From Eledone cirrhosa (lineage: Eukaryota), in assembly GCA_964016885.1 (NCBI GenBank), contig OZ024755.1:25730001-25794000 (forward strand): a DNA stretch of 64,000 nt, read 5' to 3'. This document shows, one piece after another, positions 31,901-34,900 of the stretch. The position numbers and the translations under genes are program-made. The notes beneath the pieces were generated by a model. It was not told where the DNA came from and searched no databases. It was given only the letters and a program-made list of their open reading frames with translations. Each line of letters starts with the position of its first letter. Position 1 is the first letter of the stretch.

Positions 31901-34900
31901 TCAAGTTGTTAAAAGGTATCAATAGAAAAACACTAAAGACCTGGATGCAGTCCAGTCTCCTTAGAGTGTAAATAGTTAAGGGCCATAGAGCTTCATATGG
32001 AGTGGTAGGGGTTCTACTCTTGACCATTTGCTGTGCAGCTCTCCCTAGATATTCCTACTACATAATGTCTCCTGTCAAAGACTCAACATATATTACAGTG
32101 TATCAAACAGCAGCAAACACTGCCACCTTGGTATCTTACAGGTTGATGGCGGAGAGATAGTGGTAGTTGTTGTAGTGGAGAGTGGTGGTGGGGAGGGTCA
32201 CTTGGTTGTGGTGGTGGTGGTGGTGGTAGGGACATAGTGGTAGTTGTAGTGGACTGCGATGTTGGAAGGGGGTCACATGGGGGAAGGATAATAATGGTGT
32301 TGGTGATAATGATGGTGGTAGGTGGTTGTTGTCAACCGTTCTGGAGAATGTTGATCTGTTGAGGTGGGGGTTGGCAGTGCTGACGGAAGGGGGTCTGTAT
32401 ACCCCCTACCTCAGTCACATGGTGGTGGCAGTGGTGGTCATAGCTTTTTTTAATAAGAGCTTATAGAGGTTGAGCTAATGTATAGTTGCCTTAAGGGTAG
32501 GAATGATGTGAAGAAGGGGAAGGATAGTGTGAGGTGGGGATATAATAAAACAATTAAGTAACCCTCCCACTCCTGAATGTATGGTGGGGGTAGAGGAGTT
32601 AGCAATGCTGTGATAACATAGTGTGTGTGTGTTGCTGTAGTATACACACAGGAGGAACCCCAGTAACACACATATACAGGCTAGAAGGGCCTGACTTTAC
32701 TGGACTGAAGTTAGGGGTTTCAGTAACACACATACATGTACAGGTTAAGGGCTGACTGGACAGGAGTTAGGGGGTCTGAATATACACATATAGGAAACCA
32801 AGCAGGGATCCAGGGACCCAGTTTACTGAACTGAAGTTAGGGCTTTAATACCACCACAGACAACCAACCAAGCAGGGACCCAGTTTAATGAAGTGAAGTT
32901 AGGGCTTCAACACTACCACAGGAGGACACCAACCAAGCAGGGACCTAGTTTAGTGAACTGAAGTTAGGGCTCAGGGAGGTTTTGCTGGTTTTTCAAGAAT
33001 TTGCTTCTTCATTCATGTCACACATACATGGGTACTTGTGTGAGTCACTGTCACAGAAAGCCATTAGTGGCCCAGATACAGTACCCCAGTAGTACTATTG
33101 GTGATGGTAGCCATGATAAAAGTGGAAATAACACGGGCCAAAAAGCTACCGCTAATACTAGTGTACCAGATGTTAATGATGGAACTGGGACAACATACTA
33201 TGAGACTATTAACTATCACCACCTCCACTACAACAACAGCTACCACGGCTTTAATGAGGACAATAACCACTACTACCATCACTATGACAACAATGAGGTT
33301 AAAGCTACAACAATTACTAATAGTATTGGTAGTCGGGGTAGTCAGGAGTATGGTCTCTCTACTGATAGAGACTCACGGCGAGAGATAGAAGAGGAAAAAG
33401 ATGAGGACAGTGATTATGCAGAAGTAGGTAGGTGTTTGTTTACCCACCAACAATGATGTCAACCTTATTTTTATACAAAACCACCTGAAATTAACTTTGT
33501 TTTTATCATATAGAATTGTTTAGTTTAAAGTGTTTATATTTATCTAAAAACCTGTCATAATTTTATGTAAGAATCTTTGTATTGTAATGCTCCAAACGCC
33601 AGCTTAATAATGAGAGAGTTAGTTTTATTACTAAATCCCTTTTAATTCTTGATTACTTCAAAATTATTTAAATAAGTGTTTCTACTTTTGGCACAAGGCC
33701 AGCTATTACCCCAGTGTATTACTGGTACTTTATTTTATCGACCCCGTAAGGATGAAAGACAAAGTTGACCTCTTAAATAATATTGGCAGTATCTTTCATT
33801 AGAAATATGATAATGAAAAGGTTAGACATAGGTAGTTTCTTTCTTTAGAAATATGGCAATGAAAGGATTTTAGACATAGTCAGTGTCTTTCATTAGATAT
33901 ATGGTAATGAAAAGATTAAGACATAGGCATATTGGAGAATTTCTTGGTATCACACATGGTGTAGGGACCCATTGCTAATCTATGATTGCTGCTGTCGTGT
34001 ATGTAGGAACCCCAGAAAATTGTTCTGTCAGAAGGACCACTGTTAATCTATGTCTGATATGGTTACGTATATAGGGACTCAAGTGTATTGCTTTGTACAG
34101 GACCCAATAATGTTAAGTCTTCCCTGCCTACGACCCACTTACATCCAGCCATAGAAAACCTGCCAAAGGGTTGGGAGGACTCTTCTGTTGTGTCAAAAAC
34201 ATGAATTCCTCAGTACTAGTGTCACAATAAAATGCACCCATTGTGCTTGGTATGCAGTGAGAATGTATGGAAGAGAGATGTAGGCCTTTGACCCATCTGA
34301 GAACCCTGTACAATAGGAGAGCATATGTAAACACAATGCAAACTATCTGAAGGGTCAGTACTCCATTATAGTACTGACCCAGTGTGTGGTGACTTGTCTA
34401 ACCCTTGCTAACAGGGAAAACAAACATTAAGTAATGACAAACATCTGTTATCTCTGTTAGCAAGGACTGGACAGGTCACCATAGACCAGGTTACTGGGTC
34501 AGTACTCAAGTGGAGCCACCACCATCATCATTATTTTAAGTAGACATTTCCATGCTTGCATCAGTTGAAGGTGTGGAAAAGTGGCCATTGGTTGTGATAC
34601 GTGTGTGTGTGTGTGTGTGTGTGTGTGTGTGTGTGTGTGTGTGTGTGTGTGTGTGTATCTATATATACTGGCTGTGTAAGTGTCATCCTTCTTCACACAC
34701 CTATTTCTATATTTCACCTGTTGTATTTCTACAACCTGTGCTTTTCTCTCTCTCTCTCTCTCTCTCCCACATTCCTGAGATACTAATCATGTATTGTACA
34801 TGACTCATGGTACCAACTATACTAGCTTAGTCTCTGCTGGTGTTACTGTTGCCTCTACTACTGCTGTTGCTATTAAAACTCCTCCACACCGCCACATCAA

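What the first reader, a model, noticed from the sequence alone, without database searches (positions are those of the whole stretch)
33028..33427. Hidden alternative CAP first exon encoding a dual-acylation (MGTCVS) N-terminus
Seen: inside CAP intron 1 a 133-codon ORF begins [11 protein letters not shown], runs through a Y/H/N-rich segment and an acidic [13 protein letters not shown] end, and stops at AG|GTAGGT in exactly the phase (1) needed to join exon 37501 in frame (~566-aa product). Known: MGxxxS is the N-myristoylation consensus and a nearby Cys is typical of palmitoylation (Src-family/G-alpha style); canonical CAPs are soluble and oligomerise through N-terminal RLE motifs. Inference: this would be a membrane-anchored CAP lacking the RLE domain, an architecture I do not recognise for this family. 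DSDYAEV also resembles an acidic tyrosine-kinase site.
Basis: partly seen in the sequence, partly recalled or inferred. Interest (0 to 1): 0.8.

Follow-up and report, generated by a model that had tools for sequence, protein, structure and literature searches.

The report
Conserved lipid-anchor exon in octopod CAP
Inside the first intron of an octopod's actin-recycling CAP gene lies a 133-codon reading frame whose start, lipid-attachment motif, tyrosine motifs and end are kept in another species, so it is likely a real alternative first exon that would give a membrane-anchored CAP without its usual oligomerisation segment.

Summary
Observation confirmed: ATG 33028, open frame to TAG|GTAGGT after 33427 (phase 1), in-frame join to CAP exon 2 at 37501 gives 566 aa without the RLE segment. 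The decisive test supports it: a search of 1.84 billion protein representatives gave one hit, an unnamed 153-aa read-through ORF from another organism, 47% identical, that keeps MGTCVS, a 12-residue [12 protein letters not shown] block, DYAEV and the residues read through the donor. Its only match in this genome is this locus. Neutral drift kept all three features in 0 of 5000 simulations. Not shown: splicing to exon 2, expression, acylation; no RNA run was available and the relative's genomic context could not be read. Cys8 is not conserved, the Y/H/N stretch is microsatellite-like, the start context is weak. Precedents exist for a palmitoylated CAP (Toxoplasma) and for an annotated RLE-less CAP (Dreissena), but my searches found no myristoyl-type, tyrosine-motif, RLE-less CAP. 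The gene's upstream exon also carries an MxCC start shared across molluscs. Verdict: new variant of a known kind, probably real.

The parts
33028..33427 (+). Candidate alternative first coding exon, 133 codons plus 1 base (phase 1)
   Evidence: relative P0051 47% identical over the exon
33028..33045 (+). MGTCVS: Gly2/Ser6 myristoylation-type start with Cys4 (acylation predicted)
   Evidence: 6 of 6 residues identical in P0051-P0053
33178..33213 (+). [12 protein letters not shown], the longest conserved block; candidate phosphotyrosine/SH2 site (inferred)
   Evidence: 12 of 12 identical
33211..33296 (+). Y/H/N-rich spacer, ACN-microsatellite-like, poorly conserved
   Evidence: 72-78% DNA matches to simple-repeat arrays; lag-3 identity 0.53
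33388..33426 (+). Acidic run ending in DYAEV; candidate tyrosine-kinase site (inferred)
   Evidence: acidic run and DYAEV kept in P0051-P0053
33425..33433 (+). Splice donor TAG|GTAGGT
   Evidence: score 7.6-8.2, within the leave-one-out range 5.9-12.5 of the gene's 12 donors; read-through GRC identical in the relative
22411..22981 (+). Upstream CAP coding exon: MFCC long N-terminus, second start at 22849, RLE oligomerisation motif; skipped in the candidate isoform
   Evidence: PF01213 E 0.0021, 18.8 bits against cut-off 19; 49% and 40% identical to Octopus bimaculoides and Argonauta extensions
30467..30563 (+). Second candidate alternative first exon (32 codons, Y/P/Q-rich, phase-1 donor CAG|GTGAGT); untested by homology
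37501..37604 (+). CAP exon 2, phase-1 acceptor, start of the helical folded domain
   Evidence: PF21938 E 0.0033
38466..42072 (+). Five exons of the helical folded domain (38466-38543, 39416-39469, 39931-40020, 40876-40958, 41967-42072)
48889..50359 (+). Two exons for polyproline and WH2 region (48889-49072, 50187-50359)
51280..55542 (+). Four exons of the CARP domain and stop (51280-51403, 52575-52657, 54344-54487, 55465-55542)
32796..32971 (.). 62-bp tandem repeat just upstream of the ATG; role unknown

Best explanation
This is likely a real alternative first exon of the single CAP gene, predicted to splice to exon 2 and give a 566-aa CAP that would be held on membranes by myristate on Gly2 and palmitate on Cys4 instead of oligomerising through the RLE segment. 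Shown: open frame, compatible phase, loss of RLE in the modelled product, conservation of start, motif blocks and end in another organism. Inferred: an intronic promoter drives it; the roughly 130-residue hydrophilic segment is a flexible tether whose conserved tyrosines (YYETI, EYxLS, DYAEV) are kinase sites that dock SH2 proteins; the intact helical, polyproline, WH2 and CARP regions still bind actin. Membrane crowding plus CARP dimerisation would replace RLE-driven avidity, placing cofilin-assisted depolymerisation and monomer recharging at the cortex under tyrosine-kinase control.
For: One hit among 1,835,955,588 representatives, E 4e-11, covering residues 1-133; three near-identical Logan proteins in its cluster; reciprocal match only to this locus. 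Identity 62 of 133 (47%), like the accepted upstream extension against O. bimaculoides (71 of 146) and Argonauta (58 of 146). Identities cluster at start (6), middle (12) and end (5): 0 of 200,000 permutations; neutral substitution kept frame, first 6 and last 5 residues in 0 of 5000 runs at each of four divergence levels. Stop codons after the donor differ (9 against 22 residues read through), so the read-through tail is not conserved. No phase-1 acceptor inside or just before it; the first acceptor scoring above 4 downstream is exon 2. Genome null. Dimeric helical domain works at much lower concentration than monomeric (PMC6876575 passages); C-terminal half acts on barbed ends (PMC10692737 abstract).
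Against: No junction read or transcript: the three runs that hold the stretch behave as DNA. The relative's genomic context is unseen, so it is not shown to lie in a CAP gene, and all homology rests on one cluster. 0 of 38 full-length CAPs fetched carry this exon. Start context is weak (T at -3), an out-of-frame ATG lies 13 bases upstream, and there is no TATA box in 600 bases. Synonymous codon use did not score as coding (-0.08; low-power test). Trinucleotide-periodic DNA here opens a 133-codon frame in 37 of 335 windows. Cys8 and the basic residues are only partly kept. Acylation rests on motif only.
Confidence: 0.72

Rival explanations
1. A real, conserved coding sequence, but not part of CAP: a small stand-alone lipid-anchored tyrosine adaptor (unspliced 142-aa read-through, or first exon of a nested gene) lying in the CAP intron.
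For: The only relative is recorded as a stand-alone 153-aa ORF; faint similarity runs a few residues past the donor (match 1-140); no CAP-joined form was found.
Against: Read-through tails differ in length and sequence after GRC; donor phase fits exon 2; no open phase-1 internal exon with good splice sites in the intron. A read-through ORF is what a splice-blind gene call on DNA would give (inference).
Confidence: 0.1
2. A real CAP exon that is spliced, but whose product is not acylated or is too rare to matter, for instance because the upstream out-of-frame ATG and weak start context suppress translation.
For: T at -3 and ATG at 33015; absent from 38 of 38 fetched CAP proteins.
Against: MGTCVS is kept at 6 of 6 residues while the next 40 residues drift, which is what selection on an N-terminal lipid signal would give.
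Confidence: 0.12
3. A chance reading frame in decayed trinucleotide repeats; the relative is neutrally diverged intron DNA that happened to stay open.
For: Microsatellite-like core; 26 stops in one other frame; 37 of 335 periodic windows have an open frame; a protein search can only find relatives that stayed open, and about 4% would (206 of 5000).
Against: Only 1 of those 37 windows has comparable composition; block-wise conservation at both ends and centre; indels all in frame.
Confidence: 0.06

Closest known systems
Cyclase-associated protein (CAP/Srv2) family, e.g. Octopus bimaculoides XP_052823658.1, Argonauta GAB1606812.1
   Same: Helical folded domain, polyproline, WH2 and CARP regions all in the shared exons.
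   Different: The candidate isoform would replace the N-terminal oligomerisation (RLE) segment by an acylation-type, tyrosine-motif tether; none of 38 fetched CAPs has it.
Toxoplasma gondii longCAP (PMC6785269)
   Same: A CAP isoform with an N-terminal extension whose Cys6/Cys8 are needed for apical location (passages).
   Different: Made by alternative translation start, not an alternative exon; 'myristoyl' does not occur in that paper's main text; no sequence relation tested.
Dreissena polymorpha CAP isoform X4 (XP_052249175.1, RefSeq prediction)
   Same: RLE-less isoform with another N-terminus joined at about the same place.
   Different: Short N-terminus (about 15 residues) with no Gly2, Cys or tyrosine motifs.
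Molluscan long CAP forms starting MxCC (this gene's exon at 22411)
   Same: Same gene, N-terminal cysteines suggest palmitoylation, long hydrophilic tether.
   Different: Keeps RLE; no Gly2; no sequence similarity to the candidate exon (E 0.062).
Src-family SH4 domains, G-alpha N-termini and FRS2-type lipid-anchored docking proteins
   Same: Gly2 with nearby Cys as dual acylation signal (PMC9409123 passage, gives Met-Gly-Cys); acidic tyrosine motifs (FRS2 and SH2 preferences are recalled, from no call).
   Different: No homology shown; no Pfam or PDB match for the exon.

Membership tests
CAP/Srv2 | Helical folded domain (PF21938) | tested here: met
   Exon 2 matches profile positions 1-26, E 0.0033, under the cut-off as a fragment; the following exons model the rest.
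CAP/Srv2 | C-terminal CARP domain (PF08603) | tested here: met
   Three exons over the cut-off, only at this locus.
CAP/Srv2 | Polyproline and WH2 region | tested here: met
   Seen in the modelled protein; human CAP1 match E 3.4e-6.
CAP/Srv2 | N-terminal oligomerisation/RLE motif (PF01213) | tested here: not met
   Present in the upstream exon (E 0.0021) but absent from the candidate exon (0 families); the gene has it, this isoform would not.
CAP/Srv2 | Actin depolymerisation and nucleotide-exchange activity | not testable with these tools
   Needs biochemistry.
Alternative first exon | Open frame from ATG to an in-phase donor | tested here: met
Alternative first exon | Conservation of frame, start and donor position in another organism | tested here: met
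   Protein level only, one cluster of three; genomic context unseen.
Alternative first exon | Junction reads and transcription start | not testable with these tools
   No RNA holder listed.
Dual-acylated (myristoyl plus palmitoyl) proteins | Gly2, Ser/Thr6 and a Cys within the first residues | tested here: met
   MGTCVS, 6 of 6 conserved; the Ser6 rule is recalled, from no call.
Dual-acylated (myristoyl plus palmitoyl) proteins | Lipid incorporation and membrane location | not testable with these tools
   Needs experiment.
Transposable-element ORF fragment | Dispersed copies in the genome | tested here: not met
   5' and 3' parts single copy; whole exon gave two weak, stop-interrupted matches. 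These searches score only the best candidates.

The most novel reading that the evidence does not exclude
Octopods switch CAP between N-terminal modules by promoter choice: soluble RLE oligomer, MxCC-palmitoylated RLE oligomer, and a myristoylated, RLE-less form whose tether is a phosphotyrosine docking platform. The last would be a natural fusion of a lipid-anchored signalling adaptor with the actin depolymerase, coupling tyrosine kinases directly to cortical actin turnover and showing that a membrane can replace CAP oligomerisation.
Probability: 0.33. Interest if true: 0.8.

Novelty: new variant of a known kind. Interest (0 to 1): 0.62.

Why it matters
What CAP oligomerisation is for, and how CAP reaches membranes, are both named as open in papers read here (PMC6876575 discussion passage; PMC7543520 passage). 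An animal CAP that has naturally swapped the oligomerisation segment for a lipid anchor with conserved tyrosine motifs makes both directly testable with simple constructs. The finding also points to an apparently mollusc-wide long CAP with an MxCC start that my literature searches did not find described.

Tried and rejected
RNA evidence: no RNA holder listed; the three runs cover introns and show no exon-exon joint among the rows shown; cover over the exon was patchy, so no polymorphism test. Word-index protein search with the exon against longer proteins found 0 of 163 candidates, but the control with the accepted upstream exon also found 0 of 2985 though relatives exist, so that blank is uninformative. 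Metagenome scans: 0 of 286 stretches confirmed; 14 of 14 exon-2 pattern hits were unrelated to CAP. ESM Atlas: no usable hit for either candidate exon. Pfam and PDB: nothing for the exon. Exact look-up of unspliced ORFs: 0 of 4 in the collection. Earlier scan findings: nothing in 7 look-ups. Cassette-exon reading rejected: no phase-1 acceptor above -1 in 32900-33400. Duplicate of the upstream extension rejected. Synonymous codon test inconclusive. Octopus proteome supplements: PMC10142993 shows one isoform sequence (X4, RLE present) and lists six further UniProt accessions of unseen sequence sharing a C-terminal peptide; PMC10138644 gave no hits; PMC7693380 gave a 479-long CAP entry without sequence; the PMC11431876 supplement could not be read. 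Two of these files were marked as cut when stored, so unseen rows may bear on whether the isoform is already annotated.

Full report
Observation. The sequence is as described. ATG at 33028 opens 133 codons ending in DSDYAEV, followed by G|GTAGGT, so the exon would be 400 bases, phase 1. The host gene is CAP: one exon matches human CAP1 and the CARP family matches only this locus in the genome. I modelled 13 coding exons from 22411 to 55542; the upstream exon gives 623 aa from 22411 or 477 aa from 22849, and the candidate exon gives 566 aa without the RLE segment. Closest named proteins are from Octopus bimaculoides (71%) and Argonauta (68%), so the source is taken to be an octopod (inference).

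Chance. I scored donors with a matrix from the gene's 12 donors; the candidate scores 7.6-8.2, inside their leave-one-out range of 5.9-12.5, but it is one of 18 sites scoring 7 or more in this intron. In 79 genome stretches (1.58 M strand-bases) 5 such phase-1 donors had 130 or more open codons from an ATG; by my reading three are retroelement ORFs, one a dinucleotide repeat and one unclear. 0 of 11 with 100 or more codons were both hydrophilic and complex, and 22 of 21,890 ATGs gave MGxxx[ST] with a Cys. The composition criteria were chosen after seeing the candidate. Against: the Y/H/N stretch resembles ACN microsatellite arrays, and DNA with similar three-base periodicity has an open 133-codon frame in 37 of 335 overlapping windows, though only 1 of the 37 has comparable composition. 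The start context has T at -3, an out-of-frame ATG lies at 33015, and no TATA box was found.

Conservation. A full HMMER search of 1,835,955,588 representatives returned one protein, P0051 (153 aa, E 4e-11, residues 1-133), in a cluster of three unnamed Logan proteins differing at one to three positions. It starts with the same MGTCVS, shares [12 protein letters not shown], EYxLS, an acidic run and DYAEV, and continues GRC, the translation of the donor, after which the tails differ (9 against 22 residues to the stop). Its only match in this genome is this locus, so it is not a paralogue seen here. Identity is 62 of 133 by global alignment, about that of the accepted upstream extension against O. 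bimaculoides (71 of 146) and above that against Argonauta (58 of 146). Runs of identity of 6 at the start, 12 inside and 5 at the end arose together in 0 of 200,000 permutations. Neutral substitution to 48% identity left the frame open in 206 of 5000 runs and kept frame, first six and last five residues in 0 of 5000, without modelling indels. A protein search can only find relatives that stayed open, so the open frame alone is weak; the block pattern is the evidence. Limits: one cluster, no DNA, so no dN/dS and no proof that it lies in a CAP gene. Clustering at 50% may hide spliced isoforms under other representatives.

Where it splices. No phase-1 acceptor lies in or just before the frame, so it is not a cassette exon. 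Downstream, the only scored acceptors are a weak one at 33514 and exon 2 at 37501. The join to exon 2 is therefore likely but not shown: no RNA holder was listed and the three runs behave as DNA.

Mechanism. Shown: anatomy and conservation. Inferred: Gly2 myristoylation and Cys4 palmitoylation (dual acylation as in Src-family and G-alpha proteins, PMC9409123 passage; the Ser6 preference is recalled); a flexible tether; tyrosine motifs as kinase and SH2 sites (likeness of YETI to Src-type SH2 ligands is recalled). The oligomerisation domain is the first 40 or so residues and enhances activity; CAP also has reported links to Abl (PMC7543520 section 5 part 1). Monomeric helical domain needs over 20-fold higher concentration, while an artificial dimer works at much lower concentration (PMC6876575 passages), and the C-terminal half acts on barbed ends (PMC10692737 abstract). 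An RLE-less form that dimerises through CARP and is concentrated on a membrane would thus plausibly stay active and act at the cortex; it might also recruit RLE-bearing CAP through CARP heterodimers (speculative).

Comparison. Of 38 full-length CAPs fetched (430 aa or more; several redundant), 0 carry this exon, 2 lack RLE (Dreissena isoform X4 and an unnamed Logan protein) and 12 start MxCC, from Argonauta, Biomphalaria, Lymnaea, Pomacea, Mactra, Mya, Ruditapes and unnamed records; O. bimaculoides has MFSC at that place. Toxoplasma longCAP needs two N-terminal cysteines for apical location (PMC6785269 passages). Searches for a myristoylated or alternative-first-exon CAP, and for octopus CAP, gave no such report (listings only, library limited to open papers); the review has no occurrence of 'myristoyl' or 'palmitoyl'. 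An Octopus proteome supplement lists seven UniProt accessions other than the O. bimaculoides one for a shared CAP peptide, of which I could see one sequence; this isoform may already be among them.

Verdict. Probably a real exon under selection (about 0.9), probably joined to CAP (about 0.8), probably a lipid-anchored RLE-less CAP (0.72). New variant of a known kind; interest 0.62.

Noticed in passing
window 30467-30563 (+): Second candidate alternative first exon in the same intron: 32 Y/P/Q-rich codons, A at -3, the strongest donor of the intron (phase 1), TATA-like site at 30248 and initiator-like sites upstream. It contains an 18-bp tandem unit, and no homology search with power was left for it.
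   Followed up: partly
window 22411-22981 (+): Upstream exon starts MFCC; an MxCC start occurs in 12 of 15 fetched CAPs of 560 aa or more from cephalopod, gastropod and bivalve records, suggesting a conserved palmitoylated long CAP in molluscs.
   Followed up: partly
window 22434 and 22820 (+): Good acceptor-like sites inside the upstream exon (scores 6.2 and 5.3); Octopus isoform X4 and one Argonauta model change N-terminus near 22434, hinting at more 5' variants.
   Followed up: no
P0004: Unnamed Logan CAP, cephalopod-like, that begins six residues before the exon-2 sequence and lacks RLE; could be another alternative start or a truncated call.
   Followed up: no
window 32796-32971: 62-bp tandem repeat ending about 55 bases upstream of the candidate ATG; 0 CpG in the 600 bases upstream.
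   Followed up: no
window 53084-53662 (+): 192-aa frame that reads like a Tc1/mariner transposase fragment inside a CAP intron (label recalled, not tested).
   Followed up: no
window 31670-32070: Old dispersed-repeat fragment (68-76% identity to other genome places) upstream of the candidate exon.
   Followed up: partly
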